Positions 1,481 through 13,516 are shown, counted from the first letter of the stretch. The stretch is DNA of 64,000 nucleotides from Patescibacteria group bacterium (GCA_016860985.1 BOKM01000001.1:984040-1048039), one strand, 5' to 3'. The notes: generated by a model from the sequence alone, not told the origin. Translations and numbers: made by a program.

Positions 1481-1496
1481 TACTACCATGTAGTAG
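1481..1496. promoter_or_regulatory. Putative repressor operator (inverted repeat TACTAC-N3/4-GTAGTA) upstream of the first ATPase operon
   Basis: TACTACCATGTAGTAG sits between a -35-like TTGCTC (1470-1475) and the start codon at 1534, overlapping a -10-like TAGAAT. It is a variant of the operator found at sites 2-5. Confidence 0.45.
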
Positions 1497-1533
1497 AATA
1501 ACTAATGAACCATAATAGTTATAACCTACTCAA

Positions 1534-3426
1534 TTGATGTCAGAAATATTTAAAAACAAAAAATTACAATACCTTGCACTAGTAGCAATATTTGCTTTGA
1601 TTCTAGAAATCTTGGGAATCTTTCAACTTCACTTGCCAGCAATACTCGAAATACCTATTTATATTTTAGTAATACTAATTATTGGAAGAAAGGTGCTTTT
1701 GGGCGGTGTGCAGTCCTTGTTTAGATTCAAGTTCTCTAATATTAATTTACTTATGACTGTTGCTATTTTAGGAGCTATTTTAATAGGTGAAATCGAAGAA
1801 GCTGCGGTAATAGTTGCGTTGTTTGCCGTAAGTGAAACACTTGAAGACCTTGGTATTGAAAGTAGTCAATCAAAAATTGAAAGCCTTATTAATAAAACTC
1901 CTAAATATGTGACTTTGAAAACAGGCGAGAAAGTATCTATTGATAAAGTTTCTATTGGGGATATGTTCATTGTTAAGCCAGGAGAAACAATTGGATTAGA
2001 TGGTAAGGTTTTGTATGGGGTATCAAGCATTGATGAGTCATCTATAACTGGTGAACCTCTTCCCTCAGAAAAGGTAATTGGCTCAAATGTTTATGCCAGT
2101 ACGATAAATAAAGAAGGATACTTGGAGATTGAGGTAACGAAGTTAGCAGAAGGTAGTGTTGTTCAAAGAATAGTTGAATTAACTTCTATGGCTACTCTAA
2201 ATAAAGCAAGTTATCAAAAAGTGATTGAGAAATTCTCTAAATACTATACCCCTGCTGTTCTATTACTAGCAATTTTAATTGTACTAATTCCAACAGTATT
2301 ATTTAATCAAAGTTTTCTTGAATGGTTTGAGCGTGGTATTACATTGTTACTTATTGCTTGTCCATGTGCATTAGTTATCTCAACTCCTATATCTATTTTT
2401 TCGGCAGTAGGTAATGCATCAACAAAAGGAATAATAATCAAAGGTGGAAGATTTTTAGAGGAGTTGGGCTCGGTTAAAGCAGTTGCATTTGATAAAACAA
2501 GAACATTGACGTTGGGTAAACCTGAAATTAAAGAAGTAATAACTTTCCAAGGAGCATCTAAAGAAGAGGTTTTAGCATGTGCGGCTGGAATGGAAAATCA
2601 TTCGGAACATCCTTTGTCACAGGCTGTAATTCAATATGCAGAAAAAAACAGACTGACTTTACATAAAGTAAAAGATTTTAAGTCAATTACTGGGAAAGGA
2701 ATCTCAGCAGACTGTCTGATATGTAATGTAGGAACACATTTGTTAGGAAATCTTGAGCTGATTATAGAAAACAAAAATGATGTGACTGAAGAAATAAAAG
2801 ATACGCTTAACACTATCCAGTTGCGAGGAGATACGCCTATACTATTAGCTGATAATAACGGTGTAAAAGGAATTATTGTTATTACTGATCAGATAAGACC
2901 AGAAGCTAACAACCTAATTGATAACTTGAATAAACTTGAAGTAACTCCAATTATGTTATCGGGTGACAATACTAAGACTGTTTCCTCTGTTGCAAATTCA
3001 TTACATATAAATGACTACTATGGTGATTTACTACCTGAAAATAAAGTCGAAAAGTTGAAAGAATTACAATCAAAGTATAAGACAGTTGCTATGGTAGGTG
3101 ATGGAGTCAATGATGCTCCTGTACTAGCAACATCAAATATTGGCATAGCTATGGGGGCAGTTGGCTCTGATGTCGCTATTGAATCTGCAGACATAGCTTT
3201 GATGAATGACAATATAGAATTAATTCCCTTTCTTATTAAACTGGGGAAATATACAAAGAGCACGATTCAATTTAATATTGGTCTAGCATTAATTACAAAA
3301 TTGATAGCATTAGTGTTAGCTAGTCTTGGCATTATTGGGCTTAGTTTAGCAATTTTTGCTGACGTTGGAGTTACAATCATAGTAATCCTTTTGAGCTTAA
3401 ATATTTTCAATTTTAATCAAAATTAA
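1534..3426 (+). CDS. P1B-type heavy-metal-translocating P-type ATPase (CadA/ZntA-like, no N-terminal HMA domain)
   Basis: Motifs seen: TM6 IACPCALVISTP (the CPC metal site), DKTRTLT (phosphorylation site, a variant of DKTGT), GDGVNDAP (hinge), TGEP. Eight predicted TM helices. Confidence 0.9.
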   Translation: MMSEIFKNKKLQYLALVAIFALILEILGIFQLHLPAILEIPIYILVILIIGRKVLLGGVQSLFRFKFSNINLLMTVAILGAILIGEIEEAAVIVALFAVSETLEDLGIESSQSKIESLINKTPKYVTLKTGEKVSIDKVSIGDMFIVKPGETIGLDGKVLYGVSSIDESSITGEPLPSEKVIGSNVYASTINKEGYLEIEVTKLAEGSVVQRIVELTSMATLNKASYQKVIEKFSKYYTPAVLLLAILIVLIPTVLFNQSFLEWFERGITLLLIACPCALVISTPISIFSAVGNASTKGIIIKGGRFLEELGSVKAVAFDKTRTLTLGKPEIKEVITFQGASKEEVLACAAGMENHSEHPLSQAVIQYAEKNRLTLHKVKDFKSITGKGISADCLICNVGTHLLGNLELIIENKNDVTEEIKDTLNTIQLRGDTPILLADNNGVKGIIVITDQIRPEANNLIDNLNKLEVTPIMLSGDNTKTVSSVANSLHINDYYGDLLPENKVEKLKELQSKYKTVAMVGDGVNDAPVLATSNIGIAMGAVGSDVAIESADIALMNDNIELIPFLIKLGKYTKSTIQFNIGLALITKLIALVLASLGIIGLSLAIFADVGVTIIVILLSLNIFNFNQN

Positions 3427-3446
3427 TATTATTAATAATAAAAGAA

Positions 3447-3812
3447 ATGATAAGACTAACTGGTGAATTAGAACAATTAGTTTTAAAGATTTTAAAGGAA
3501 GAGAATAAGCCTTTGATACCTGCTGAGGTGCAGAGACTAATTCAGCCGAATAAGAGTCTTGCATATACTACAGTAATGACTGTATTAAAACGATTATATG
3601 AAAAGAAGCTTTTGAAAAGAGAAAAGCATAGTACTGCATTCGCCTATAGCTATGTAAAGTCAGATTCTGGCACATCAGATTTGAAAAATATTTTTGATGG
3701 ACTGTTAACATCTTATGGTGATATTGCCATCTCAAATTTTTTTGATTCAGTAAACACCAAGCCCGAACATAAAGAATTGTTAAAGGAATACTTGAAAAAT
3801 GCAAAGAAATAA
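3447..3812 (+). CDS. BlaI/MecI/CopY-family winged-helix transcriptional repressor (paralogue 1)
   Basis: 121 aa. The signature AYTTVMTVLKRLYEKKLL is the recognition helix of the penicillinase-repressor family. There is no C-terminal CxCx4CxC copper motif. The gene overlaps the downstream M56 peptidase by 14 nt. Confidence 0.85.
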   Translation: MIRLTGELEQLVLKILKEENKPLIPAEVQRLIQPNKSLAYTTVMTVLKRLYEKKLLKREKHSTAFAYSYVKSDSGTSDLKNIFDGLLTSYGDIAISNFFDSVNTKPEHKELLKEYLKNAKK

Positions 3813-4728
3813 TTATAAAAATCATAAAATAGCTTTCAACGTCCTTGTTTATATGTTGTGGAGCATCTATTTTATGACTCTACTATTGGCAACATTCAAG
3901 TTATTATCAGGGATTGCAATGTACAGCGTTCATACATTGGAAGCCATCTCTAATCAGTTACCACTTTATAACGTTATTACGCCATTAGAGTTAATTCTTT
4001 ATTTTATATTTTCCGTCATAGTTTTTAGTCTGTGGATCAAAATATTTAAAGCATCTACCAAATTAGTTAAAGTAATAAAAGAAACTAATCGATTTCTAAA
4101 GAATCATTCCGCGATCTACTCCAATGAGTTAAATGTATATGTAATTGACACTAAAAAATTACTTGCATTTACATCAGGTATACTGAAATTTAAGATATTC
4201 ATCTCAAAGGGTGCAATTAATTCATTAAAAGAAGAAGAGCTCGAAGCAGTTATTCTGCATGAGATGCATCATGTGAGAAGCTTTGATCCTTTAAAAAATA
4301 TTATTAACAATTTTGTAGAGCGGTCAACACTGTGGTTTCCATTAAAAGAACAGCTTTTTCAGAACTATAATACTATCTCAGAACTTTCAGCAGATAAATT
4401 TGCTAGCGACAGTATGAAATCCGAGGATTCTCTTTTAAAGGCCTTAAATAAGCTTCTAAATATTTCAAATCCAACAGCATTTAGCATTGCAACGTTTATC
4501 TCAAAATTAGAACGAATTCCGATATTAACAGGTAATACTATTTTTTCTTTTAAAAGCAATTACTTAGTACTCCTAGTAAGTATTGGGATCATCTCATATC
4601 TTGGAGTATCACTAAATAGTTTTAACCCCATTGATAAATGCGATGATTTCAATCAGTGTGTCAGTTCTCTGTTAACGAAGGATCAGATGTTAGAGTCTGA
4701 CACAGGAATGTCGTGTATTAGTAATTAG
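3799..4728 (+). CDS. BlaR1/MecR1-like M56 family zinc metallopeptidase (signal-transducer type) with a Cys-rich C-terminal tail
   Basis: N-terminal TM helices and a HExxH motif in ILHEMHHVRSF. It lacks a penicillin-binding sensor domain. The C-terminus ends in ...DKCDDFNQCVSSLL...GMSCISN. It is translationally coupled to the BlaI-like gene. Confidence 0.8.
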   Translation: MQRNNYKNHKIAFNVLVYMLWSIYFMTLLLATFKLLSGIAMYSVHTLEAISNQLPLYNVITPLELILYFIFSVIVFSLWIKIFKASTKLVKVIKETNRFLKNHSAIYSNELNVYVIDTKKLLAFTSGILKFKIFISKGAINSLKEEELEAVILHEMHHVRSFDPLKNIINNFVERSTLWFPLKEQLFQNYNTISELSADKFASDSMKSEDSLLKALNKLLNISNPTAFSIATFISKLERIPILTGNTIFSFKSNYLVLLVSIGIISYLGVSLNSFNPIDKCDDFNQCVSSLLTKDQMLESDTGMSCISN

Positions 4729-4789
4729 ATAGGCTTTTTAGGCTGTTCTTAAAATATTCTATTTTTAGGATTGACACATACAATTTAAT

Positions 4790-4806
4790 CTACTACACTG
4801 TAGTAG
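4790..4806. promoter_or_regulatory. Putative operator (CTACTAC-ACT-GTAGTAG, contains a cop-box-like TACAC-TGTA) overlapping the -10 region
   Basis: Perfect 7-nt inverted arms. TTGACA -35 at 4771-4776, 13 nt upstream. Start codon of the downstream operon at 4833. Confidence 0.6.
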
Positions 4807-4832
4807 TTTAAATTGTTAGTATATTCCTTAAG

Positions 4833-5720
4833 ATGAAGAAGAATGAGAAATTACCAATAGATTTTGAGAAAGTTGGTGAAGAGATTGTAAAAAAAGAGCG
4901 AGTAACTCATATTTCAATTAGTACTGAATTATTAATACCTATTTCAATATTTTTTGGCGCAATTATTATCTCGTTATCAATTTTCTTTAGCTTTAGAGGA
5001 TTGAACATATCATCCAACACTAATACAGCGAAAGCTCCTGATGCTACTACAGAGGTGCAACAGCAAGCACAAGCTCCAGATAATCCAACTGTTAGTATAG
5101 ATAAGGTTAAATCATTATTTAATGGCGGCGGAATAAGCTTTGGTAACGAAAATAGTAAGCTCTTATTTGTCGAGTTTTCAGATCCTAGTTGTCCATATTG
5201 TCATATTGCAGGAGGTAAAAATCCAGAACTAAATAAACAAGTTGGAAAACAGTTTGTCTTAAAGGCGGATGGCGGTACGTATGTTGCTCCTGTACCAGAA
5301 ATGAAAAAGTTAGTAGATGAAGGCAAGGCATCATTTGTATGGATCTATACAAATGGCCATGGAAATGGAGAATTGGCAACTGAGTCTCTTTACTGCGCAA
5401 AGGAAAAAGGAAAGTTTTGGGAAGCACATGACTTGTTGATGAGCAATTCAGGATATTCGCTTATTAATGACACAGTTAAAAATGATAGAAGTAAATCACC
5501 AGAACTAGCTAAATTCCTGAGCTCTGTGATAGACAGTTCCTTTATGCAGGGATGTTTAGAAGGTAAAAAGTATAATGCGAAAATTGCTGAAAACCAAAAT
5601 TTGGCTAGAAGCATGGGAGTAAGTGGTACACCAGGATTCTTTGTAAATGAAACTAATTTCGCAGGTGCATACAGTTTTAATGATATGCAAAGTGTTGTAT
5701 CGGAGGCATTGTCTAAATAA
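4833..5720 (+). CDS. Membrane-anchored thioredoxin-fold protein, DsbA-like thiol:disulfide oxidoreductase (CPYC)
   Basis: N-terminal TM anchor. Active-site context VEFSDPSCPYCH matches DsbA/thioredoxin CxxC. First gene after operator 2. Confidence 0.7.
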   Translation: MKKNEKLPIDFEKVGEEIVKKERVTHISISTELLIPISIFFGAIIISLSIFFSFRGLNISSNTNTAKAPDATTEVQQQAQAPDNPTVSIDKVKSLFNGGGISFGNENSKLLFVEFSDPSCPYCHIAGGKNPELNKQVGKQFVLKADGGTYVAPVPEMKKLVDEGKASFVWIYTNGHGNGELATESLYCAKEKGKFWEAHDLLMSNSGYSLINDTVKNDRSKSPELAKFLSSVIDSSFMQGCLEGKKYNAKIAENQNLARSMGVSGTPGFFVNETNFAGAYSFNDMQSVVSEALSK

Positions 5721-5724
5721 TAAA

Positions 5725-6384
5725 ATGGAAAATAATATGAAAGGTTTTGCAATTGGAGTTACTCTTATTTCATTCATTATGCTCTTCGGATTTGTTTATC
5801 TTCTTGGGAAATCTACACCTTCCCAAGAGGATAATGCTTCAATCCTGAGTATTGATAACGATGATTGGGTATATGGTAATAGAGATTCTAAGGTTGTTCT
5901 GGTTGAATATGCTGATTACGAATGTGAAGCATGTGCTGCAGCCTCGCCTATGGTTGAAACTATTAAAGCGGAATATAAGGACAAGATAGCTTTTGTTGTT
6001 AGGTATTTTCCTTTACCTGGTCACCGATATTCAAAACAATCGGCCTATGCAGTAGAATCAGCAGGCAAGCAGGGTAAATACTGGGAAATGAATAAATTAA
6101 TGTTTCAAAATCAAACTGATTGGTCTGGTAACCCTAAGAGTGATGAAATCTTTAGAGGTTATGCACAAGACTTAGGGTTAAATATTGAGCAATTCAATGC
6201 TGATACAAGTTCAGTACAAACAAAAGACAGAGTTGATCATGATTTAAAAAGCGGAAAAGATTTGAACATTCAAGGGACCCCAACTTTTTTCTTGAATGGT
6301 AGAAAAATACCTACACCACGTAATATTGAAGCTTTTAGAAATCTTTTGGATGAAGAAATTAACAAATCAAGCACGATAGAATAA
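5725..6384 (+). CDS. DsbA-like thiol:disulfide oxidoreductase (CEAC), membrane-anchored
   Basis: The start was moved to ATG 5725 (MENNMKGFAIGVTLISFIMLF), just after the upstream stop at 5720. Motif VEYADYECEACAA. 220 aa. Confidence 0.7.
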   Translation: MENNMKGFAIGVTLISFIMLFGFVYLLGKSTPSQEDNASILSIDNDDWVYGNRDSKVVLVEYADYECEACAAASPMVETIKAEYKDKIAFVVRYFPLPGHRYSKQSAYAVESAGKQGKYWEMNKLMFQNQTDWSGNPKSDEIFRGYAQDLGLNIEQFNADTSSVQTKDRVDHDLKSGKDLNIQGTPTFFLNGRKIPTPRNIEAFRNLLDEEINKSSTIE

Positions 6385-6386
6385 AT

Positions 6387-7607
6387 ATGAATATATTTGG
6401 TATAAATACAAACCAAGCTAAAACAATAGACAGTAATTTCGCGTATCTTGATCAGAATAAATATTTTTATTTCGATTCAGCATGTCAAACACTCAGACCG
6501 CAAGTAGTCATACAATCAGAACAAGATTACTATCAAGAATATAATGCTTGTGGACATAGAGTAAAGTATGAATGGGGCAAAACTGTTGATAGCCTTACTG
6601 ATGAGACGAGAGAGCTACTTCTTAAAGCCGTTAACAAAACTTCTAAAGAATATACTGTAGCCTTTTGCTTAAATACTACTCATGGAATCAATACGATTCT
6701 TCATCAATTAAATCCTAATTTATACGATAGGATTGTAACATCTGAAATTGAACATAACTCAGTCTTCTTAAATGCCTTAACATGGAGTAAAAGAAACAAT
6801 AAGAAAAGGATTGTATGTAGTAGGCATGAGGATGGCGGATTGGAATATAAGAAAGAAGATTTGAGTAAAGCAGTTGTACTTGTAAACGAAACTAGCAATA
6901 TCGATGGGAGAAGACTTACTAATATAAATGAATTAGCTAAAGATGTTCACAATGTAGGTGGGATTATCTTACTAGATGGTGCTCAAACATTTGGTCATGA
7001 CATTCATTTCCTAAAAGATATTGATTTCGATGCAATTTTGGGCTCTGGACATAAGATGTATGGACCAAGTATAGGATTTATTATTGTAAAAAAGTCATTA
7101 TTAAAAAATTTAGATAACTACCTGATTGGTGGCGGTACTGTTGAAAATGTAAGATATAATGATTTTGATCTTGTTTCAAATGATGATGAATTATATGCTC
7201 GAATAGAAGCAGGATTACAGAATTTTGCAGGAATAATAGGACTCGGTAGTGCAATAAAATGGAAAAGTGATTTTCGGTATGGAAGTCTTAATGCCACAGA
7301 ATATGAGCAAGAATTGAAAACATATTTACTGCAAGAACTTTTGAAAATAAAATCAATTAATCTACTGAGTTTAAATCCAAGCTCAGTTGTTTCCATATAC
7401 TCCAATAAAATTGATGCACATAAATTAGGTGCGCTGCTTTCTACAAAACAAATAATGTGCAGAACTGGATATTTTTGTTGTCACTATTATTTAAAGGAAC
7501 TCAAACAGTTACCACCACTACTTAGAATTAGTTTAGGGTTAAATAACACAAAAGAACAGATCGATTTTTTGGTTGAGAACTTAGATTTCATTATTAGTAA
7601 ATTTTAA
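6387..7607 (+). CDS. Class V aminotransferase-fold protein, divergent cysteine desulfurase-like (SufS/CsdA family)
   Basis: FDSACQTLRPQ (N-terminal motif), SGHKMYGP (PLP-lysine motif S-G-H-K), and MCRTGYFCC near the C-terminus (RxGxHC-like catalytic Cys loop). 406 aa. Confidence 0.65.
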   Translation: MNIFGINTNQAKTIDSNFAYLDQNKYFYFDSACQTLRPQVVIQSEQDYYQEYNACGHRVKYEWGKTVDSLTDETRELLLKAVNKTSKEYTVAFCLNTTHGINTILHQLNPNLYDRIVTSEIEHNSVFLNALTWSKRNNKKRIVCSRHEDGGLEYKKEDLSKAVVLVNETSNIDGRRLTNINELAKDVHNVGGIILLDGAQTFGHDIHFLKDIDFDAILGSGHKMYGPSIGFIIVKKSLLKNLDNYLIGGGTVENVRYNDFDLVSNDDELYARIEAGLQNFAGIIGLGSAIKWKSDFRYGSLNATEYEQELKTYLLQELLKIKSINLLSLNPSSVVSIYSNKIDAHKLGALLSTKQIMCRTGYFCCHYYLKELKQLPPLLRISLGLNNTKEQIDFLVENLDFIISKF

Positions 7608-7618
7608 AATCCAAAACT

Positions 7619-8659
7619 ATGCTTTGTATAATAATATTCGTACTCTTTCTGCTTTTTTTTCCAATAGGAATGTTTTCAAAAACGTACCGTAATCTTTTTA
7701 AAAAAGCATGGATATGCGCATTCAAAAAAATTACTCTAAAACCGTGTGATGAAGACTTTGGAAGCGAAATTAAAAATCTAATTGTAGGGAAATTGTTTTT
7801 CAGATTTCCCCGAATTGCAAAATTTCTTGATAAAACAATGACTTTCTGGGCTATACTTTTCGTCGTTCTATCTGTTTGGAGCTTGCTTTATACAGCTAAT
7901 GCTGGATTAAACTTGTGGGTCTATGATACATGTAATCCGACAAATGGTGAGTCTTGTTCACTTGGAGGAGAATCATGTGGATTAAATACTGAACAAGCAC
8001 CCAGCATAATTGAAACTCTTTCAAGAGTACCTGAGCGATTTAAAAACTGGCAAGCAAAGGAATACGTTTCAGAAAGTGCTACATACTACAATCCGTATGA
8101 TACCTCGAAATCTGATGCCGTAGAATTTATTGATCCAGGATGTCGATTTTGTAAAAAACTTTGGGGCAACATAAAAGAATCAGGTTTTGAAAACGAGCAT
8201 AATTTAACGTATGTTGTCTACCCTATACCTCAAAAGGATTCTAATTCGGGATACCACTTTCCTCATTCTTATTACATTTCCTCTGTTTTAGAATCAATTA
8301 AATTAAGTCCTCCGCCTGAGATAACTAATTCAAATATTCCAAACGATTGGAGACTATTAGATAAATTGTTTACTGCGCAAGATGATAAATATAAAACAGA
8401 CCTGCAAAACGCAATAAACACGCTTTACACAAGAGAGGAAGTCACATTAATTATTCATGGCTACTTACGAGAATTTGGCTATAGTGATTATCAGATTATT
8501 GAAATTGAAAAATTGGCTAAGTCGGATAAGGTACAGGATAGTTTGAGTAAACAAGCTACGATTGTAACTGATAAAGTTAAGACAGTGAAAATACCAACAA
8601 TTATATTTAATGGAAAGCGTTTTGACAGGGTTGTAGATAGAGAAACTTTATCAAAGTAA
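7619..8659 (+). CDS. Membrane-anchored Cys-rich protein with a DsbA-like CxxC motif
   Basis: N-terminal TMs. CNPTNGESCSLGGESCG. VEFIDPGCRFCKK resembles the DsbA active site VEFFSFFCPHCYQ. Otherwise unassigned. Confidence 0.5.
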   Translation: MLCIIIFVLFLLFFPIGMFSKTYRNLFKKAWICAFKKITLKPCDEDFGSEIKNLIVGKLFFRFPRIAKFLDKTMTFWAILFVVLSVWSLLYTANAGLNLWVYDTCNPTNGESCSLGGESCGLNTEQAPSIIETLSRVPERFKNWQAKEYVSESATYYNPYDTSKSDAVEFIDPGCRFCKKLWGNIKESGFENEHNLTYVVYPIPQKDSNSGYHFPHSYYISSVLESIKLSPPPEITNSNIPNDWRLLDKLFTAQDDKYKTDLQNAINTLYTREEVTLIIHGYLREFGYSDYQIIEIEKLAKSDKVQDSLSKQATIVTDKVKTVKIPTIIFNGKRFDRVVDRETLSK

Positions 8660-8694
8660 TTTTACTAGCCTCTTTGAAAATTTGCCAAAGCATG

Positions 8695-8709
8695 CTACAC
8701 TTGTAGTAG
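8695..8709. promoter_or_regulatory. Putative operator (CTACA-CT-TGTAGTAG, exact cop-box TACAnnTGTA) upstream of the second BlaI-like gene
   Basis: Inverted repeat 25 nt upstream of the start codon at 8734. -35-like TTGCCA at 8682-8687. Confidence 0.55.
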
Positions 8710-8733: not shown

Positions 8734-9099
8734 ATGAAATCTTTAGTCCTTGGTGACCTCGAACAAGAAATATTATCAATTATTTGGGCTTCAAAAGAGC
8801 CAATGAATGTTCGAGCTGTACTCGAACAACTTAAAGAAAAGTCGGCATATACAACTGTTATGACAGTGATGACAAGAATGGAGAAAAAAGGTATTCTTAA
8901 ACGAATACCTGATGGTAATTCGTATGTATATACTTATACGGAAGATAGAGAAGAATTTGCGGGTAAACACTTAGGTGAAATTTTTAACTCATTAGTAGAC
9001 ACATATGGAGAGTTGGCAATTTCACAATTTGTCGATTCTATGAAAAGTGATAGCAAAAATGTTAAACTTCTCAAAGACTTTATAAATAAAAATGAATAA
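8734..9099 (+). CDS. BlaI/MecI/CopY-family transcriptional repressor (paralogue 2)
   Basis: 121 aa. AYTTVMTVMTRMEKKGIL. Same length and layout as 3447-3812. Overlaps the next gene by 8 nt. Confidence 0.85.
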   Translation: MKSLVLGDLEQEILSIIWASKEPMNVRAVLEQLKEKSAYTTVMTVMTRMEKKGILKRIPDGNSYVYTYTEDREEFAGKHLGEIFNSLVDTYGELAISQFVDSMKSDSKNVKLLKDFINKNE

Positions 9100-10045
9100 T
9101 ATTTTTAAAAAACAAACAAATCGCCTTTTTATTATTTATTGTATTTCAGGTTTTGCCTATATAACTCTCCTATTGCTTTTATCTATAAGAGCTTTGCCAG
9201 GTTTTTTTATGCAAGTATTGTTTCTTGCTGATGCAATAATTAAAAGTCATTCAGAAATTAGCCCTATTATATTTAGTGATGCATTTATTAAAGCTTTCGT
9301 TTCAGGAGGAATCTCTATGGGTTTGATATTTATTGCAGTAAGAGGAATCTCTAGCTCAACAAAACAGCTAATAATAACCAGCAAATTTTTAAACTCCTTA
9401 AAGATTAAATCTAAAGTTAATATTGTTAATTTAGATGTTACAGATACTTCTGTATTCACTGCTGGAATGATTACACCTAAGGTCTATATTTCCTCAAAGC
9501 TAAAGGACTCATTAACTTCTGAACAGTTAAAGGCGGTTTTGCATCATGAGTTTTCGCATTGCAAAGATCATGACCCATTAAGAGGGTTTATCGTACAACT
9601 CATCAATAACATACTTCCGAAATTTCCTTTTAAGAACAAATTGAAAGATATTTATTTCACATCTGTTGAATTAAAAAGTGATGAACACTCCAAAAATATA
9701 TTAGGAAAGAAAAGACCAATTATAGAAGCCTTATACTCAATTCTGAGTAACGATTTTTCCATGTCAATGCAACCGAATTTAGCACATTTTAGTAATATGC
9801 CCGAAAGAATACCTGTATTAGTTGGAGCAAAAAAGTTTAACTTCAAATTAGTTACTGCTTTATCATCATTCTTTCTATTTGCCTTAGTCAGTTTACCTGT
9901 TTTGGCCTATACAGCAAAATTTTATAACTGTGAACATATTGAAGATTGTATTCAAATATTTGTTAATAATCTGCAAAGCAATTCTTCTGAAAATCTATGC
10001 TCTATGCATTCGATGGATACTCCAACTTCTTGTACATCAAATTAA
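9092..10045 (+). CDS. BlaR1-like M56 family peptidase (paralogue 2) with a Cys-rich C-terminal tail
   Basis: HExxH in VLHHEFSHCKDHDPL. N-terminal TM segments. The C-terminus is FYNCEHIEDCIQIF...LCSMHSMDTPTSCTSN. Confidence 0.8.
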   Translation: MNNIFKKQTNRLFIIYCISGFAYITLLLLLSIRALPGFFMQVLFLADAIIKSHSEISPIIFSDAFIKAFVSGGISMGLIFIAVRGISSSTKQLIITSKFLNSLKIKSKVNIVNLDVTDTSVFTAGMITPKVYISSKLKDSLTSEQLKAVLHHEFSHCKDHDPLRGFIVQLINNILPKFPFKNKLKDIYFTSVELKSDEHSKNILGKKRPIIEALYSILSNDFSMSMQPNLAHFSNMPERIPVLVGAKKFNFKLVTALSSFFLFALVSLPVLAYTAKFYNCEHIEDCIQIFVNNLQSNSSENLCSMHSMDTPTSCTSN

Positions 10046-10075
10046 TTCTAAAAGTTCTTGACAATTAATCATTAA

Positions 10076-10095
10076 GCTACTACACTTGTAGTAGC
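10076..10095. promoter_or_regulatory. Putative operator (GCTACTACA-CT-TGTAGTAGC, perfect 9-nt arms, cop-box TACAnnTGTA)
   Basis: TTGACA -35 at 10058-10063. The operator overlaps the -10 position. Start codon at 10117. Confidence 0.65.
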
Positions 10096-10116
10096 TTAAT
10101 TTGTTATGAACTATGA

Positions 10117-11706
10117 ATGAAAAGTAAATCGAAAAAATCAGAACCTCAATTACAAGAATGCAGTTACTCTGTAAAGGGAATGCATTGTGCAAGTTGTGAA
10201 GTCCTCATTGAAAAAAAACTTATAAAACAAACTAATATAGAAGGTGTAGATGCCTCTACTTCAGACAACAAAGTAATAATAGAATATAAAGGAGAGAAGC
10301 CTACTCTAGATCAATTGAATAAATTGTTTAAAGCTGAAGGCTATAGTTTTGATGAAAATGACAGTAAAGATGCAGTTCAAGATGATGTTGAAAAGTTGTT
10401 TCAAGTTGAAAATGGTAAGTTAACTTTTAGCACACGCAAACTCAACTCTATTCTCTTTATTATCGTGGGGGTTGCGGGTATTTTCTTAATCTATAAACTA
10501 TTTGAACGATTTGGATTAGCTTCTGCCGTCTCTGTAAACGCAACATCTGCATTACCTGCCTTTTTCTTTTTTGGTATTGTGGCTGGCTTTTCGAGCTGTG
10601 CAGCTCTTGTTGGTGGAATTGTTCTGTCAATGTCAAAGCAGTGGTATGAGCTTCACTCTACGAGCAATTCTTTTTCAGAAAAACTACAGCCACATCTATT
10701 GTTTAATATCGGGAGAATTGTTTCATTTGCAATACTTGGAGGTGTTTTAGGTGCGATTGGAAGTATTTTTACAATATCACCTTTATTTACAGCTATTGTC
10801 GCAATTCTTGTCTCTATAATGATGGTATTGTTAGGTTTGCAAATGCTCGGGATTAAGGCTTTTCAACGATTTCAGTTTAGAATGCCTAAAGTGTTTTCAA
10901 GGTACATTGCTGATGAATCCAATTTTGCAGGTAAATACATGCCTATGATTATGGGTGCACTTACATTCTTTCTTCCTTGTGGGTTCACCATTACGGCTCA
11001 AGGGTTAGCTATGGTATCAGGAGATCCTATTCGTGGAGCACTAATAATGTCGTTGTTTGCTTTAGGAACTTCTCCAATGCTTTTATTCATTGGAATGTCT
11101 AGTACAAAGATGTATGAAAAAGCTCATATTGCTGAAAATTTTATGAAGTTAGTTGGTATTCTCGTTATTTTTTTCGGACTTTCAACTGTCAATATGCAAT
11201 TAGTTGCCCTCGGACTTCCAAATTTAAATGACATTAGTTTCGGACAAAGTAGTATTAACCAGAGTAATAACATAGGCTCTTCAAATAGCACTCTTCCAGA
11301 AATTGTAAATGGAAAGCAAATCGTTAAGATGGAGGCAAGTGCTTCAGGTTATTCGCCTAATAATATTAAAGTAAGAGTTAATGTCCCTGTTCGATGGGAA
11401 ATCAATGACACTGGAACTTCTGGCTGTACTAACGCCATTATCTCTAAAGGTCTTTTTGATGGTCAGATAGATCTTGAAACAGGAAAAGTTGCAGTTAAAG
11501 AGTTTACTCCAACAAAAGTCGGGAAATATAGATTTAGCTGTTGGATGGGAATGGTAACAGGGGTTATTGAAGTTGTGGATGATACCGGTAAAACAGTAAG
11601 TGATTCGGGAACAACTAATAATCAGGTTGTTGTTGAGTCAGGTGCTAAAGGGTGCGGTTGTGGTGGAGGTGGTGGAAATTCATGCGGAGGTACAAAAAAC
11701 AACTAA
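10117..11706 (+). CDS. Three-part fusion protein: N-terminal HMA metal-binding domain, polytopic permease with conserved intramembrane Cys (CcdA/DsbD- or TauE-like), C-terminal cupredoxin-like domain
   Basis: GMHCASC (HMA MxCxxC). About 8 TM helices with FSSCAALVGG and FFLPCGF. The C-terminal soluble domain YSPNNIKVRVNVPVRWE...SGCTNAII...FSCWMGMVTG is paralogous to the standalone protein 13557-13994. A Gly/Cys-rich tail CGCGGGGGNSCGG follows. Confidence 0.7.
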   Translation: MKSKSKKSEPQLQECSYSVKGMHCASCEVLIEKKLIKQTNIEGVDASTSDNKVIIEYKGEKPTLDQLNKLFKAEGYSFDENDSKDAVQDDVEKLFQVENGKLTFSTRKLNSILFIIVGVAGIFLIYKLFERFGLASAVSVNATSALPAFFFFGIVAGFSSCAALVGGIVLSMSKQWYELHSTSNSFSEKLQPHLLFNIGRIVSFAILGGVLGAIGSIFTISPLFTAIVAILVSIMMVLLGLQMLGIKAFQRFQFRMPKVFSRYIADESNFAGKYMPMIMGALTFFLPCGFTITAQGLAMVSGDPIRGALIMSLFALGTSPMLLFIGMSSTKMYEKAHIAENFMKLVGILVIFFGLSTVNMQLVALGLPNLNDISFGQSSINQSNNIGSSNSTLPEIVNGKQIVKMEASASGYSPNNIKVRVNVPVRWEINDTGTSGCTNAIISKGLFDGQIDLETGKVAVKEFTPTKVGKYRFSCWMGMVTGVIEVVDDTGKTVSDSGTTNNQVVVESGAKGCGCGGGGGNSCGGTKNN

Positions 11707-11719
11707 TACAATTACATAA

Positions 11720-12697
11720 ATGATTCTAAGAATTAGTCCAACAAAACTTATTGTTCAAATATTTGTTACTCAATCATTAGTACTAGTATTTCTTGGAATA
11801 ACAAATATTATTGATCACCTAACGCTTTTTTATAATACCTTCACCCATTCTCAATTTATTTCTTTTGGTGTTTTAAGCTTAATTGTTAGTTTGGTAGTAC
11901 TTATTGTTTCTATTGCATACGGTCTCTCTTTGTGGCTCAATACTGTTTATGAGATAAGCAATGGAAAGCTCACGATAAAGAAGGGACTTTTAAACAGACA
12001 GGTATTAGAAATTAAATTAAGCAATATTGTACAAACTGAAAGTAATTTACCATTTTTAGGAAAGTTCTTTAATTATGGAGATATTTCATTTAAAACTGAA
12101 AATGGTGGGAAAACAATCAGGATTAAATCAATAACAGATGTACTAGATGTTCAAAAGTTTCTCCAAAACCAAAAAATGATTAATAGCAGTAGGCTTCCAA
12201 AAGTTACTAAAGAATCTATAGTTGAAATCATCAAAAACGGAGAGACAGATGAAATTGAATTCAAATCTAGTTTGAGATGGGATTTATCACTTCTAAAAGT
12301 AAATAAAGTATTAGAGAAATCAGTATTTAAGACAATAGTTGGATTTCTCAATGGCAATGGTGGATTGTTAATTGTTGGTGTTAGTGACACAGGGGAACTC
12401 TTAGGCTTAAATAATGACTATTTAAGCCTTCCAAAGAAAAATATTGATGGTTTCGAAAATCATATGACTCAACTCTTCGGCGAATGTATAGGGATTGAAC
12501 ATAGGCACTTAATAAAAATATTTCACTTCGTTATTGAGAATAAAGAAGTTGCGGTTGTGAGAATTAAGCCAAGTAAAAATCCAATTTATTTAAGGAATGG
12601 AGAAAATGAGGATTTTTTCTTGCGTACAGGAAATACTACCAGTTTACTTTCTGGGCATGAGATCTTTAATTATCTTAGATATCGTAACAAAATATGA
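11720..12697 (+). CDS. Membrane-anchored bPH_2 (DUF304/YdbT-like) domain protein fused to an AlbA_2/Schlafen-like putative DNA-binding domain
   Basis: Two N-terminal TMs. SNGKLTIKKGLLNRQVLEIKLSNIVQ...YGDISFKTENG matches bacterial PH domains. The C-terminus EIEFKSSLRWDL...KTIVGFLNGNGGLLIVGVSDTGELLG matches the AlbA_2 (PF04326) signature. Confidence 0.6.
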   Translation: MILRISPTKLIVQIFVTQSLVLVFLGITNIIDHLTLFYNTFTHSQFISFGVLSLIVSLVVLIVSIAYGLSLWLNTVYEISNGKLTIKKGLLNRQVLEIKLSNIVQTESNLPFLGKFFNYGDISFKTENGGKTIRIKSITDVLDVQKFLQNQKMINSSRLPKVTKESIVEIIKNGETDEIEFKSSLRWDLSLLKVNKVLEKSVFKTIVGFLNGNGGLLIVGVSDTGELLGLNNDYLSLPKKNIDGFENHMTQLFGECIGIEHRHLIKIFHFVIENKEVAVVRIKPSKNPIYLRNGENEDFFLRTGNTTSLLSGHEIFNYLRYRNKI

Positions 12698-13485
12698 AAA
12701 ATTTATTAACCAAATTACCCTTAGTTATTTCGTTGTTATTTATACTCGCTACATTGTTAGCTGTACTTGCTCCTGTATTTGCTTATTTAAAGCTAAACTT
12801 TTTATCTGACCCAATTTATTGGTTTTATCAGTGGTTTTGCCATCAAAGACCTTGGCGTTCATATCATATGTTTGATTATCAATATGCACTGGATGCGAGA
12901 ATGATTACTTTGTTTTTAGGTCTGGGTGTCGGTGGCTTATTAACATCAGTAAAAAAGTTAAAACCATTAAAATGGAAATATGTAATGATTGTTATCATAA
13001 TAATGATTGTTCCTATGGGAATTGATGGCATAACTCAATTAATTGCAGAGTTAAGTGTTATAAACAAAGTAACACAGTTGCCATTTTATGAGAGTACAAA
13101 TTTTATCAGAAGTATTACTGGTATTTTTGCAGGTGTTGGAATTTCAGTAGCATTATTTCCATATATTAATAATGGCGAATCTGTAGGTTTTAACAACGAT
13201 TATCTTAAAACAATACTTCTTGGAATGCTTATAACCTTTTTATTTATTCCTCTTTTTGTGTATCTATGGTTTGTATCCTCTACTAAATATACACCATCTT
13301 CAATGTTTATTGATTCATTACAGAGATTTCCAGGATACAATTATGAAGTAACAACTGGTGGCGGTCACTCAACCATCAATAGGATCATCAAAGAACCTAC
13401 AGATCTCTATAAGCAAAGAGAAAAGTATTATCAGAATAAGAATACTGGGCTATGCAGTGGTAGTACAAAAGAAAATTGTAATTAA
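12694..13485 (+). CDS. Polytopic membrane protein, DUF2085-like (CHQRP motif)
   Basis: Multiple TM helices. WFYQWFCHQRPWRSYHMF resembles the conserved CHQ-R-P-x-RSF motif of DUF2085. Low certainty. Confidence 0.45.
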   Translation: MKNLLTKLPLVISLLFILATLLAVLAPVFAYLKLNFLSDPIYWFYQWFCHQRPWRSYHMFDYQYALDARMITLFLGLGVGGLLTSVKKLKPLKWKYVMIVIIIMIVPMGIDGITQLIAELSVINKVTQLPFYESTNFIRSITGIFAGVGISVALFPYINNGESVGFNNDYLKTILLGMLITFLFIPLFVYLWFVSSTKYTPSSMFIDSLQRFPGYNYEVTTGGGHSTINRIIKEPTDLYKQREKYYQNKNTGLCSGSTKENCN

Positions 13486-13494
13486 TAATTGACA

Positions 13495-13516
13495 TACTAC
13501 TACATGTGTAGTAGTA
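13495..13516. promoter_or_regulatory. Putative operator (TACTACTACA-TG-TGTAGTAGTA, perfect 10-nt arms, cop-box TACAnnTGTA)
   Basis: TTGACA -35 at 13489-13494, immediately upstream. Start codon of the downstream operon at 13557. Confidence 0.65.

What the first reader, a model, noticed from the sequence alone, without database searches (positions are those of the whole stretch)
1481..13516. Five conserved inverted-repeat operators (cop-box type TACAnnTGTA inside TACTACA...TGTAGTA) precede every operon start of the co-directional block
The sites are 1481-1496, 4790-4806, 8695-8709, 10076-10095 and 13495-13516. Each lies between a TTGACA-like -35 and the start codon and overlaps the -10 region. 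Arms reach 9-10 perfect nt (GCTACTACA-CT-TGTAGTAGC and TACTACTACA-TG-TGTAGTAGTA). The core matches the cop box bound by CopY and the TACA/TGTA half-sites of BlaI/MecI. This defines a regulon. It covers a Cd/Zn-type ATPase with the first regulator pair, a DsbA-like/cysteine desulfurase-like operon, the second regulator pair, the HMA-permease-cupredoxin fusion with the bPH-AlbA_2 and DUF2085 proteins, and cupredoxin-CopZ-DUF305-CopA. Two repressor paralogues may discriminate between site variants.
Basis: seen in the sequence. Interest (0 to 1): 0.75.

Follow-up and report, generated by a model that had tools for sequence, protein, structure and literature searches.

The report
Spacing-coded operators of two BlaI-type repressors
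Five conserved DNA palindromes sit on the promoters of a metal-resistance island in a tiny-genome (Patescibacteria) bacterium; they are most likely the binding sites of two related repressors that tell their targets apart by a one-base difference in spacing and are switched off by partner membrane proteases rather than by binding metal themselves.

Summary
The five palindromes are real, at the stated coordinates, and non-random: CTAC-N3/4-GTAG gives 6 hits against 0.76 expected. They occupy every intergenic gap of about 70 nt or more in the block and the region upstream of its first gene.

They are promoter-overlapping operators for the two Penicillinase_R repressors encoded in the block. Three corrections apply:
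- Only 3 of 5 match the cop box. The conserved half-site is ACTAC/GTAGT. Sites 1-2 have a 3-nt spacer and sites 3-5 a 4-nt spacer.
- In 27 related loci the spacing tracks the cassette. Cassettes carrying repressor 1 (R1) always have N3 sites; cassettes carrying repressor 2 (R2) always have N4.
- The repressors have no cysteines and fail the CopY model. Each overlaps a BlaR1-like HEXXH membrane protease gene. That protease lacks a penicillin-binding domain and ends in a conserved Cys-rich tail.

The system is therefore BlaI/BlaR-type, not CopY-type, and probably senses metal or thiol stress.

Further findings:
- The same half-site, at 4-6 nt spacings, recurs across phyla in front of Dsb and copper genes.
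- The outer arms of site 4 covary like a stem.
- The whole regulon lies on a 16.9-kb island at tRNA-Gly.

Binding, cleavage and the signal are inferred, not shown.

The parts
1481..1496 (.). Operator site 1, N3 class: TACTAC-CAT-GTAGTA. It lies upstream of the ATPase-R1-A1 operon and overlaps a TAGAAT -10-like hexamer at 1494-1499.
   Evidence: Orthologues in L089-L096 keep ACTAC-N3-GTAGT while the centre varies (CAT, TTT, TCT).
4790..4806 (.). Operator site 2, N3 class: CTACTAC-ACT-GTAGTAG. It lies upstream of the Trx/DsbA/SufS-like operon. The -10 hexamer TACACT (4794-4799) lies inside it and the -35 TTGACA is at 4771-4776.
   Evidence: The core is invariant in 6 distinct orthologues. The RNA fold is -16.1 kcal/mol.
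8694..8709 (.). Operator site 3, N4 class with an imperfect left arm: GCTAC-ACTT-GTAGTAG. It lies upstream of R2-A2 and is the autoregulatory site. The -10 hexamer TACACT is at 8696-8701.
   Evidence: The G in the left arm is conserved in all orthologues.
10071..10100 (.). Operator site 4, N4 class: core ACTAC-ACTT-GTAGT inside a palindrome with 13-nt arms. The -35 TTGACA is at 10058-10063 and the -10 TACACT at 10081-10086. It is possibly also the terminator hairpin of the R2-A2 operon.
   Evidence: -17 kcal/mol, z -6.2; 6 of 7 outer pairs show compensatory changes.
13495..13516 (.). Operator site 5, N4 class: TACTACTAC-ATGT-GTAGTAGTA. It fills the spacer between the -35 TTGACA (13489-13494) and the -10 TAGTAT (13512-13517), upstream of cupredoxin-CopZ-DUF305-CopA-FtrD.
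   Evidence: Orthologues in L005, L090 and L179 have centres AAGT, ACGT and ACAT.
1537..3426 (+). P1B-2 (Zn/Cd/Pb-type) P-type ATPase without an N-terminal HMA domain. First gene of operon 1.
   Evidence: NCBIfam TIGR01512 scores 462.7 against a cut-off of 313.5, while the Cu model TIGR01511 scores 357.6, below its cut-off of 397. CPC and ADVG motifs are visible in the translation.
3447..3812 (+). Repressor R1: 121 aa, BlaI/Penicillinase_R family, no cysteine, recognition helix AYTTVMTV.
3799..4728 (+). A1: membrane HEXXH (HEMHH) metalloprotease of the M48/M56 type. Its gene overlaps R1. The C-terminal tail carries C-x5-C and a third Cys.
4833..8659 (+). Operon 2: Thioredoxin_4 protein (4833-5720), DsbA-like protein (5647-6384 as listed), SufS-like class-V aminotransferase (6387-7607), and a 346-aa protein with a faint thioredoxin-like C-terminus (7619-8659).
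   Evidence: The same module follows R1-A1 in L089-L097.
8734..9099 (+). Repressor R2: 121 aa, BlaI/Penicillinase_R family, no cysteine, 34% identical to R1.
9092..10045 (+). A2: membrane HEXXH (HEFSH) metalloprotease whose gene overlaps R2. A 45-aa tail follows the last TM helix: NCEHIEDC...CSMHSM...SCTSN.
   Evidence: The AF2 model has mean pLDDT 81. The best PDB fold matches are S. aureus BlaR1 8exq, 8exr and 8exp.
10117..13485 (+). Operon 4: HMA-DsbD_2-cupredoxin fusion (10117-11706), bPH_2-AlbA_2 protein (11720-12697), DUF2085 membrane protein (12694-13485).
   Evidence: The presence of the last two genes varies among relatives.
13557..17719 (+). Operon 5: cupredoxin (13557-13994), CopZ-like HMA (14003-14227), DUF305 (14245-14805), CopA P1B-1 ATPase (14830-17142), FtrD-like protein (17162-17719).
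   Evidence: TIGR01511 scores 609.9 against a cut-off of 397. YN and MAFSS motifs are visible in the translation.
1217..1290 (+). tRNA-Gly(UCC), the left border of the island. Its 3' 16 nt (1274-1289) is one copy of the flanking direct repeat.
18159..18174 (+). Second copy of AATCTCGTCGCCCGCT, the right border of the ~16.9-kb low-GC island.

Best explanation
The five palindromes are operators of two paralogous BlaI-family winged-helix repressors, R1 (3447-3812) and R2 (8734-9099).

Specificity. Both repressors carry the same recognition helix (AYTTVMTV) and read the same half-site, ACTAC/GTAGT. R1 dimers are proposed to bind half-sites 3 nt apart (sites 1 and 2). R2 dimers are proposed to bind half-sites 4 nt apart (sites 3, 4 and 5). 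A one-base spacing difference would then keep the two circuits separate.

Repression. Each operator overlaps core promoter elements. At sites 2, 3 and 4 the -10 hexamer TACACT is built from the left half-site plus the spacer. At sites 1 and 5 the operator fills the -35/-10 spacer. A bound repressor would therefore exclude RNA polymerase.

Induction. Neither repressor can sense metal directly, because neither has any cysteine. Each is co-transcribed with a BlaR1-like membrane zinc protease, A1 or A2. In these proteases a short Cys/His/Met-rich tail, predicted to be extracytoplasmic, replaces the penicillin-binding domain. The tail is proposed to sense thiophilic metal or thiol stress: copper for A2, and Zn/Cd-type metal or disulfide stress for A1. 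Sensing would activate the cytoplasmic protease, which would cut the repressor at the conserved LAIS[Q/N]-F bond. That bond aligns with the Asn101-Phe102 bond of BlaI. Cleavage would release the repressor from DNA.

Output.
- R1 regulon: a P1B-2 ATPase, DsbA/thioredoxin-like proteins and a SufS-like protein.
- R2 regulon: the HMA-DsbD_2-cupredoxin fusion, a cupredoxin, CopZ, DUF305, CopA and an FtrD-like protein.
- Both regulator pairs are autoregulated.

Shown versus inferred. Shown: the existence of the sites, their conservation, their promoter geometry, the co-segregation of spacing with cassette, the protein family assignments, the absence of the CopY motif, and the conserved Cys tail. Inferred: binding, discrimination by spacing, cleavage, and the identity of the signal.
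For: 1. Non-random sites at every operon start.
2. Orthologous loci whose flanks have diverged keep the core. Ten distinct N3 sites occur only in R1 cassettes (L089-L097, repressors 50-94% identical). At least 21 distinct N4 sites occur only in R2 cassettes (L001-L008, L090, L179-L187).
3. Across 1.82 Mb of distant loci chosen only for encoding a relative of the repressor, exact ACTAC-Nx-GTAGT occurs 42 times at N5, 13 at N6, 11 at N4, 1 at N2 and 0 at N3. About 1.7 are expected per spacing. On a repressor tree the spacing is clade-consistent.
4. Of 95 distinct sites, 36 have a TTGACA-like hexamer exactly 15 nt upstream. In 35 of those the spacer starts A[CA]T, which gives TTGACA-17-TACA[CA]T.
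5. In locus L009 a second pair of paralogues again uses two spacings. N4 sites precede a Cys-rich repressor and CopA. N5 sites precede the repressor-protease pair and the HMA-DsbD_2-cupredoxin fusion.
6. R1 and R2 hit Penicillinase_R at 58.5 and 86.8 bits. Their best solved relative is M. tuberculosis BlaI. They have no cysteine.
7. A1 and A2 carry HEXXH and hit M48 above the cut-off. The best fold match of the A2 model is BlaR1. The C-x5-C in the tail is nearly invariant.
8. Q98-F99 of R2 and N-F of R1 align with BlaI N101-F102 (cleavage site from PMC9834060), and this stretch is among the most conserved in the family.
9. In distant lineages the genes downstream of such sites are repeatedly HMA-DsbD_2-cupredoxin, DsbD, DsbA/thioredoxin, AhpC-like redoxin or SufS-like.
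Against: - No binding, cleavage or expression data exist for any of these proteins.
- The link between spacing and repressor is correlative. Each cassette moves as a unit, so the two could co-segregate by linkage alone.
- Only 64 kb of the ~1.05-Mb genome could be scanned, so the full regulon is unknown.
- The PF05569 (M56) scores of A1 and A2 (28.8 and 29.9) fall just below the cut-off of 31, and TM-scores to BlaR1 are only 0.4-0.5.
- The Cys tail could instead be structural (disulfides) or could bind a protein partner.
- One A2 relative, P0153, lacks the last two cysteines.
- The outer arms of site 4 covary like an RNA or DNA stem. Protein binding does not explain this, so the element may have a second role.
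Confidence: 0.6

Rival explanations
1. The sites are operators of the BlaI-type repressors, but spacing does not discriminate. R1 and R2 both bind all five sites, or only one of them is the functional regulator, so the block is a single cross-regulated regulon.
For: The recognition helices are identical and so are the half-sites. Winged-helix dimers with flexible linkers can tolerate small changes in spacing. The co-segregation of spacing and repressor could reflect physical linkage within mobile cassettes.
Against: Spacing is strictly cassette-specific in all 27 related loci, including R1 lineages only 50% identical. It is clade-consistent across the wider family. A second genome, L009, also pairs two paralogues with two spacings. 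N3 is absent from 1.82 Mb of loci that lack an R1-type repressor.
Confidence: 0.2
2. The palindromes act mainly as nucleic-acid hairpins between co-directional operons (intrinsic terminators, RNA stability or processing elements), or they are kept symmetric by quasipalindrome template-switch mutation. Protein binding would be secondary or absent.
For: Sites 2, 4 and 5 fold at -16.1, -17.0 and -12.0 kcal/mol, with z-scores of -4.6, -6.2 and -3.2. The terminator scan flags sites 2 and 4. At site 4, 6 of 7 outer pairs show compensatory double changes, 95.7% of cells are paired, and 0 of 500 shuffles reach the observed values. A U-rich tract, TTTGTTAT, follows site 4.
Against: - The inner TACTAC/GTAGTA is conserved in sequence, not merely in pairing, from 36% to 77% GC genomes.
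- It lies at a fixed 15 nt from TTGACA in 36 sites.
- Sites 1 and 3 do not fold better than shuffled sequence, and they precede the first gene of a cassette, where there is nothing to terminate.
- With the -10 at the centre of the palindrome, the regulated transcript would contain only the right arm.
- Covariation at site 2 is inconclusive.

A dual role for sites 2 and 4 remains likely.
Confidence: 0.08
3. This is a CopY-type system. The repressors bind cop boxes and sense Cu(I)/Zn(II) directly, and the adjacent proteases are irrelevant.
For: Three sites match TACANNTGTA. The R2 regulon is a classical copper set of CopA and CopZ. CopY_TcrY is the best-scoring NCBIfam model for both repressors.
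Against: - R1 and R2 have no cysteine at all. The CXCX4CXC motif is what distinguishes CopY from BlaI/MecI (PMC11672702, section 3.2.5).
- Their scores of 24.6 and 46.0 bits are far below the cut-off of 121.95.
- Sites 1 and 2 are not cop boxes, and none of the sites fits positions 1 and 16 of RNYKACANNTGTMRNY (PMC7253601).
- The repressor and protease genes overlap and are conserved as a pair in every relative.
Confidence: 0.05
4. The palindromes are recombination or integration sites that mobilise the gene cassettes.
For: Homology among R2 cassettes in four different genomic contexts begins right at site 3. Cassette content varies between sites 4 and 5. The whole block is an island flanked by direct repeats. 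Relatives lie next to relaxase or recombinase genes.
Against: - The island borders are the tRNA-Gly repeats, not the palindromes.
- No recombinase is encoded in the block.
- Each new context supplies its own -35-like hexamer at 16-18 nt from TACACT (read), as expected for a promoter.
- The motif is tied to the repressor family across phyla.
Confidence: 0.03

Closest known systems
BlaI/BlaR1 and MecI/MecR1 of Staphylococcus aureus and Bacillus licheniformis
   Same: - A Penicillinase_R winged-helix repressor gene sits next to, and is co-transcribed with, a membrane HEXXH zinc protease gene.
- The palindromic operators overlap the promoters and the system is autoregulated.
- The scissile N-F bond of BlaI (PMC9834060) aligns with Q-F in R2 and N-F in R1.
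- The best fold match of the A2 model is BlaR1.
   Different: - There is no penicillin-binding sensor domain. A ~45-aa Cys-rich tail takes its place.
- The proteases are about 310 aa, against 585 aa for BlaR1.
- The targets are metal-efflux and thiol-disulfide genes, not a beta-lactamase or PBP2a.
- The half-site is ACTAC, with N3 or N4 spacing.
- The order here is repressor then protease, as in most BlaIR-like pairs (PMC13492132). From memory, the S. aureus bla operon has blaR1 before blaI.
CopY/CopR repressors and the cop box (Enterococcus hirae, Lactococcus lactis, Streptococcus pneumoniae)
   Same: They share the protein superfamily. They control CopA and CopZ. Three of the five sites contain TACANNTGTA.
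   Different: - There is no C-terminal CXC/CXCX4CXC motif, and indeed no cysteine at all.
- The repressors fail TIGR02698.
- The sites fail positions 1 and 16 of RNYKACANNTGTMRNY (PMC7253601).
- A partner protease is present.
- Validated CopY proteins are confined to Lactococcus, Streptococcus and Enterococcus species (Firmicutes) (PMC11672702); this organism is a Patescibacterium.
Mycobacterium tuberculosis BlaI (Rv1846c, PDB 2g9w) with its sensor-less BlaR (Rv1845c)
   Same: It is the closest solved relative (E = 8e-11) and has the same AYTTVM recognition helix. From memory, its partner protease has no penicillin-binding domain. Actinobacterial relatives fetched here carry ACTAC-GNNNC-GTAGT sites next to the gene.
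   Different: The actinobacterial sites have N5 spacing. Per the literature, its regulon comprises beta-lactamase, ATP synthase and cell-division genes (PMC12565901), not metal genes. The published operator (Sala et al. 2009) could not be read here.
CenIR of Clostridioides difficile and the 'orphan' majority of BlaIR-like systems (Kurtz et al. 2026, PMC13492132)
   Same: [quoted passage not shown] The repressor gene lies upstream of the protease gene.
   Different: CenR's signal is unknown and its tail is predicted to be disordered and was judged unpredictable. Here the regulon content (metal efflux and Dsb genes) and a conserved C-x5-C tail point to a specific class of signal.
Paralogous BlaI regulators of Clostridium thermocellum (PMC8457756)
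   Same: Two BlaI paralogues in one genome have small, separate, autoregulated regulons defined by inverted repeats.
   Different: There the paralogues differ in half-site sequence (GTCTAT versus GACTAT) and use paired dyads. Here the half-site is identical and the spacing differs.

Membership tests
CopY/CopR cop-box system | Operator contains the cop box (T/G)ACANNTGTA at each regulated promoter | tested here: not met
   Only sites 3, 4 and 5 match. Site 2 is TACA-C-TGTA and site 1 is TACC-A-TGTA.
CopY/CopR cop-box system | Extended 16-base consensus RNYKACANNTGTMRNY (PMC7253601) | tested here: not met
   The N4 sites read TAC-TACANNTGTA-GTA. Position 1 is T, not a purine, and position 16 is A, not a pyrimidine (sequences).
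CopY/CopR cop-box system | C-terminal CXCX4CXC (or CXC) metal-binding motif in the repressor (PMC11672702) | tested here: not met
   R1 and R2 contain no cysteine. None of the 25 aligned relatives has a C-terminal CXC motif.
CopY/CopR cop-box system | Score at or above the cut-off of the NCBIfam equivalog TIGR02698 CopY_TcrY (121.95 bits) | tested here: not met
   R1 scores 24.6 bits and R2 46.0 bits.
BlaI/BlaR1 (BlaIR) proteolytic signalling pair | Penicillinase_R (PF03965) winged-helix repressor | tested here: met
   R1 scores 58.5 and R2 86.8 bits against a cut-off of 22.6. PDB sequence hits are 2g9w, 1p6r, 1sd4 and 1okr.
BlaI/BlaR1 (BlaIR) proteolytic signalling pair | Adjacent membrane zinc metalloprotease of the M56 type with an HEXXH motif | tested here: inconclusive
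   HEMHH and HEFSH are present. PF01435 (M48, same clan) is above its cut-off, but PF05569 (M56) scores 28.8 and 29.9 against a cut-off of 31. The collection's precomputed Pfam hits (E at most 1e-3) list PF05569 for the A2 homologues, marked weak in the locus tables. The top fold hits are BlaR1 8exq, 8exr and 8exp, with probability 1.0 but TM-scores of only 0.4-0.5.
BlaI/BlaR1 (BlaIR) proteolytic signalling pair | Extracellular penicillin-binding (transpeptidase) sensor domain | tested here: not met
   No PF00905 hit. The proteins end about 45 aa after the last TM helix. blaR1_generic scores 22 bits against a cut-off of 400.
BlaI/BlaR1 (BlaIR) proteolytic signalling pair | Conserved scissile bond (BlaI Asn101-Phe102) in the dimerisation domain | tested here: met
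   The alignment places R2 Q98-F99 opposite BlaI N-F. R1 has N-F. F99 is invariant and LAIS.F is nearly invariant in 25 relatives. The cleavage site is taken from PMC9834060. Actual cleavage was not tested.
BlaI/BlaR1 (BlaIR) proteolytic signalling pair | Signal-induced cleavage of the repressor and derepression | not testable with these tools
   This needs biochemistry or expression data.
Intrinsic (rho-independent) terminator, as a second role for sites 2 and 4 | Stable GC-containing hairpin followed by a U tract at the end of a transcription unit | tested here: inconclusive
   The hairpins fold at -16 and -17 kcal/mol and the scan flags both. Covariation is strong at site 4 but not at site 2. 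The U tract is interrupted (TTTGTTAT) and the stems are AT-rich.
tRNA-integrated genomic island | Insertion next to a tRNA gene, flanked by a direct repeat of the tRNA 3' end, with deviant composition | tested here: met
   The 16-nt repeat lies at 1274-1289 and 18159-18174, with 0 expected by chance. GC is 0.31-0.35 inside against about 0.40 outside.
tRNA-integrated genomic island | Integrase or recombinase encoded within the island | tested here: not met
   No recombinase domain is found in any ORF between 1290 and 18174.

The most novel reading that the evidence does not exclude
A large and mostly uncharacterised branch of the BlaI/BlaR family, defined by the AYTTVM recognition helix, is an envelope metal/thiol-stress sensing system. 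The short Cys-rich extracytoplasmic tail of the protease is the sensor. All members read the same ACTAC half-site. The half-site spacing (3, 4, 5 or 6 nt) works as an evolvable 'address' that lets paralogous sensor-repressor pairs coexist in one cell without cross-talk. If so, this would give the first predicted ligand class for the orphan BlaIR-like majority. It would also be a clean natural example of regulatory insulation by a one-base change in operator spacing.
Probability: 0.35. Interest if true: 0.72.

Novelty: new variant of a known kind. Interest (0 to 1): 0.55.

Why it matters
About 94% of BlaR-like proteases have no beta-lactam-binding domain. Their signals are unknown and were recently judged unpredictable (PMC13492132). 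In this system the regulon (a Cu and a Zn/Cd-type ATPase, CopZ, cupredoxins, and DsbA/DsbD-like proteins) and a conserved Cys-rich sensor tail point to a testable signal.

It also shows copper-efflux genes under a BlaI-type proteolytic switch rather than a CopY, CsoR or CueR metal sensor. This occurs in Patescibacteria, whose regulation is almost unstudied.

The strict N3/N4 partition between two paralogues with identical recognition helices is a simple hypothesis for how duplicated repressors become orthogonal. It can be tested with EMSA.

The compact design could also guide promoter and regulon prediction in candidate-phyla genomes. The -10 hexamer is built into the operator, and the operator may double as the upstream terminator.

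Tried and rejected
They returned only relatives of 50% identity or less. This was useful for the family-wide half-site but gave no close orthologues. Close orthologues came from exact-protein look-ups instead.
- The viral-contig scans for CTACTACANNTGTAGTAG and CTACTACNNNGTAGTAG returned 88 and at least 120 loci. None of the 208 fetched loci encodes an AYTTVM-type repressor. The multi-copy cases are unrelated long phage palindromes. The 14-base N3 pattern is at roughly chance level for a collection of that size, by my estimate. This line was dropped.
- Sala et al. 2009, which describes the M. tuberculosis BlaI operator, is not held, so the comparison with that motif rests on the actinobacterial loci fetched here.
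- A sequence search of A2 against the PDB found nothing. Only the fold search linked it to BlaR1.
- Literature searches for a BlaR-type copper or metal sensor, or for BlaI together with copper in Patescibacteria, found nothing relevant. This is absence in the held library, not proof of novelty.
- Allowing one mismatch in ACTAC-N3/4-GTAGT adds only chance-level, non-palindromic hits.
- The hit at 35655 (CTACAAAGGTAG) lies inside a gene and was rejected as chance.
- Covariation at site 2 was tested and is inconclusive.

Full report
**Observation**

- Site 1 (1481-1496): TACTAC-CAT-GTAGTA.
- Site 2 (4790-4806): CTACTAC-ACT-GTAGTAG.
- Site 3 (8694-8709): GCTAC-ACTT-GTAGTAG.
- Site 4: GCTACTAC-ACTT-GTAGTAGC, inside a palindrome with 13-nt arms (10071-10100).
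- Site 5 (13495-13516): TACTACTAC-ATGT-GTAGTAGTA.

The relaxed core CTAC-N3/4-GTAG occurs 6 times in the 64-kb window against 0.76 expected, and 0 of 100 shuffles reach 6. The sixth hit (35655) is intragenic and is treated as chance. The five sites occupy the region upstream of the first gene and all four intergenic gaps of about 70 nt or more in the co-directional block.

The promoter scan finds these promoters:
- Site 2: TTGACA-17-TACACT.
- Site 4: TTGACA-17-TACACT.
- Site 5: TTGACA-17-TAGTAT.
- Site 3: TTGAAA-16-TACACT.
- Site 1 has only a weak -35, with a TAGAAT hexamer overlapping its right arm (read by eye).

One correction matters. Only sites 3-5 match the cop box TACANNTGTA. Sites 1 and 2 are one base shorter between the arms.

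**Genes**

Pfam and NCBIfam give five operons.
1. A P1B-2 (Cd/Zn-type) ATPase without an HMA domain, then repressor R1, then protease A1.
2. Two thioredoxin/DsbA-like proteins, a SufS-like aminotransferase and a 346-aa protein.
3. Repressor R2 and protease A2.
4. An HMA-DsbD_2-cupredoxin fusion, a bPH_2-AlbA_2 protein and DUF2085.
5. A cupredoxin, CopZ, DUF305, CopA (P1B-1) and an FtrD-like protein.

R1 and R2 are 121-aa Penicillinase_R proteins that are 34% identical. Neither contains a cysteine. They score 24.6 and 46.0 bits on the CopY_TcrY equivalog, whose cut-off is 121.95. Their closest solved relative is M. tuberculosis BlaI, 2g9w, which has the same AYTTVM recognition helix. They are therefore not CopY-type metal sensors. 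The C-terminal Cys motif is what separates CopY from BlaI/MecI (PMC11672702).

**The partner proteases**

Each repressor gene overlaps the gene of a ~310-aa membrane protein carrying HEXXH.
- Pfam M48 is above its cut-off. M56 is just below.
- An AlphaFold model of A2 has mean pLDDT 81.
- Its best PDB fold matches are the S. aureus BlaR1 structures, followed by Ste24-type M48 proteases. TM-scores are modest.
- There is no penicillin-binding domain.
- After the last TM helix comes a ~45-aa tail. In A2 it reads NCEHIEDC...CSMHSM...SC. In A1 it is C-x5-C plus one further Cys.
- The C-x5-C is nearly invariant among relatives, and C-x5/6-C motifs also occur in the tails of more distant Patescibacteria homologues.
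- By analogy with the topology of BlaR1, where the active site is cytosolic and the C-terminus is outside (PMC9834060), the tail is predicted to be extracytoplasmic. This is an inference.
- The BlaI scissile bond Asn101-Phe102 (PMC9834060) aligns with Q98-F99 of R2 and N-F of R1. It lies in the conserved LAIS[Q/N]F stretch of the C-terminal half.

**Comparative evidence for operators**

The source is a 1.05-Mb contig of a Patescibacteria group bacterium. Exact-protein look-ups retrieved 27 related loci.

The R2 cassette (R2-A2, the HMA-DsbD_2-cupredoxin gene, and so on through CopA) sits in at least six different genomic contexts. The R1 cassette (ATPase, R1, A1, Trx, DsbA, SufS-like, and the unknown protein) sits in at least three. 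Some of these lie beside relaxase or recombinase genes. L090 carries both cassettes, joined as in the window.

In every R1 cassette the two sites are ACTAC-N3-GTAGT. This holds for repressors 50-94% identical. The centre is CAT, TTT or TCT at site 1 and ACT at site 2. In every R2 cassette the sites are ACTAC-N4-GTAGT. The flanks diverge while the core and the -35 stay fixed.

Upstream of site 3, homology between contexts stops at the palindrome. Even so, each context supplies a -35-like hexamer 16-18 nt from TACACT (read).

The imperfect left arm of site 3 (GCTAC) is conserved in all lineages. This suggests a deliberately weaker autoregulatory operator, which is an inference.

Where DUF2085 is absent (L001, L181, L186), site 5 is absent too and operons 4 and 5 are fused.

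**Family-wide pattern**

I scanned 1.82 Mb of distant loci chosen only because they encode a relative (50% identity or less) with the AYTT[VI]MTV or GELAISQF peptide patterns. Exact ACTAC-Nx-GTAGT occurs:
- 42 times at N5;
- 13 times at N6;
- 11 times at N4;
- once at N2;
- never at N3.

About 1.7 are expected per spacing.

Spacing is clade-consistent on a repressor tree. The R1 clade is N3 and the R2 clade N4. WWE3 and Actinobacteria are N5. A clade that includes a Caldilineaceae (Chloroflexota) MAG is N6.

Of 95 distinct sites, 36 have a TTGACA-like hexamer exactly 15 nt upstream. In 35 of those the spacer begins A[CA]T. This is a conserved promoter-operator design, TTGACA-17-TACA[CA]T, in which the -10 hexamer is made of the left half-site plus the spacer. 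It explains why the spacer is conserved (ACT or ACTT) at sites 2-4 but free at sites 1 and 5, where the -10 lies elsewhere.

Genes directly downstream of such sites in distant lineages are repeatedly of these kinds:
- HMA-DsbD_2-cupredoxin fusions;
- DsbD;
- DsbA or thioredoxins;
- an AhpC-like redoxin;
- a SufS-like enzyme.

In locus L009 two paralogues again use two spacings. N4 sites precede a repressor with an N-terminal CNCHCSSKC cluster and also precede CopA. N5 sites precede the repressor-protease pair and the HMA-DsbD_2-cupredoxin gene.

**Mechanism proposed**

R1 and R2 dimers read the same half-site through identical recognition helices, but at 3-nt and 4-nt spacing respectively. They occlude the core promoters.

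A1 and A2 sense a thiophilic metal or thiol stress through their Cys-rich outer tails. A2 probably senses copper and A1 probably Zn/Cd-type metal or disulfide stress, judged from their regulons. They then cleave the repressors at [Q/N]-F, as BlaR1 cleaves BlaI.

The sites, their conservation, the promoter geometry, the spacing-cassette link and the protein features are shown. Binding, discrimination by spacing, cleavage and the signal are inferred.

**A second layer at site 4**

In nine distinct orthologues the inner six pairs (TACTAC/GTAGTA) never vary. Six of the seven outer pairs show compensatory double changes. 95.7% of cells are paired, and 0 of 500 shuffles reach the observed values. 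A U-G intermediate occurs in L186.

The hairpin folds at -17 kcal/mol with z = -6.2. It follows the stop codon of A2 and precedes TTTGTTAT.

Protein recognition does not explain symmetric changes at positions whose identity is free. The outer arms probably form a stem that terminates or stabilises the R2-A2 transcript. Alternatively, quasipalindrome template-switch mutation may keep them symmetric. Site 2 is similar in shape (-16.1 kcal/mol), but its covariation is inconclusive. Sites 1 and 3 do not fold better than shuffled sequence.

**Rivals considered**

- Operators without spacing discrimination remain possible, because the spacing-repressor link could be physical linkage.
- A purely structural (hairpin) role is unlikely. 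The core is conserved in sequence from 36% to 77% GC, and it lies at a fixed distance from the -35.
- CopY-type direct sensing is contradicted by the absence of cysteines and the failed equivalog test.
- Recombination sites are unlikely, because the island borders are the tRNA repeats.

**Context**

The whole block lies between tRNA-Gly(UCC) (1217-1290) and an exact 16-nt repeat of its 3' end at 18159-18174. Its GC content is 0.31-0.35 against about 0.40 outside. It is a 16.9-kb genomic island without a detectable integrase.

**Comparison with what is known**

The system works like BlaI/BlaR1. It belongs to the non-canonical, sensor-domain-less majority of BlaIR-like pairs, whose signals are unknown (PMC13492132). 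It controls the kind of genes that CopY controls in Firmicutes, but it is not a CopY.

I found no description of a BlaR-type metal sensor, or of spacing-coded operator classes for BlaI paralogues, in the held literature. That is absence in this library only.

**Verdict**

This is a new variant of a known kind. Interest is moderate to good, at 0.55.

Noticed in passing
window 1217-1290 and 18159-18174: The 3' 16 nt of tRNA-Gly(UCC), AATCTCGTCGCCCGCT, is repeated exactly 16.9 kb downstream. The repeats bracket the low-GC metal block. This is a tRNA-integrated genomic island with no integrase gene inside.
   Followed up: partly
L009:4663-5019 (also L009 sites 4644, 9761, 13060 versus 9986, 11307): A BlaI-family repressor with an N-terminal Cys cluster (MSCNCHCSSKC) and no adjacent protease is preceded by an N4 site, and another N4 site precedes CopA. 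A second repressor-protease pair in the same locus uses N5 sites. This may be a direct-sensing variant with the Cys motif at the opposite end from CopY.
   Followed up: partly
window 11720-12697 and 12694-13485; compare L001, L005, L179, L181, L186: The bPH_2-AlbA_2 and DUF2085 genes, together with operator site 5, are variably present inside the copper cassette among close relatives. bPH_2-AlbA_2 is absent in L005 and L090. Both genes and site 5 are absent in L001, L181 and L186. They look like insertions that brought, or required, a new promoter-operator.
   Followed up: partly
window 17731-17762: A 12-bp-stem hairpin, TAGTGGGTAGTA...TACTACCCACTA, lies between the FtrD-like gene and a convergent ORF. 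It is terminator-like and contains an ACTAC word, but it is not an operator-type palindrome.
   Followed up: no
window 50322-53073 (next to tRNA-Pro and tRNA-Leu at 53556-53730): A second low-GC patch (0.33-0.36) encodes a C-5 cytosine DNA methylase and a GHKL-ATPase (HATPase_c_3) protein. It may be a restriction-modification or defence module.
   Followed up: partly
L216, L230, L208 (high-GC viral contigs); L334, L347, L292, L304 (low-GC viral contigs): Multi-copy long palindromes with the same CTACTAC...GTAGTAG core occur in phage contigs that encode no AYTTVM-type repressor. Examples are CTACTACACGTGTAGTAG (4 copies) and TAAGTAACTCTATGTACTACTACTAAGTAGTAGTACTAGAGTTAC (3 copies). Their function is unknown.
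   Followed up: partly
window 9092-10045, A2 residues 223-234: A low-confidence loop before the last TM helix contains a nearly invariant Phe-Ser (LAHFSNM). Its position is reminiscent of the Ser283-Phe284 autocleavage loop of BlaR1.
   Followed up: no
L042, L044, L046, L060, L073, L078, L079 (Nonomuraea, Acrocarpospora, Streptosporangium): The actinobacterial BlaR-like partners end in a conserved (A/T)H(H/C)CH motif right after the last TM helix. This is another short Cys/His tail that could be a sensor.
   Followed up: no
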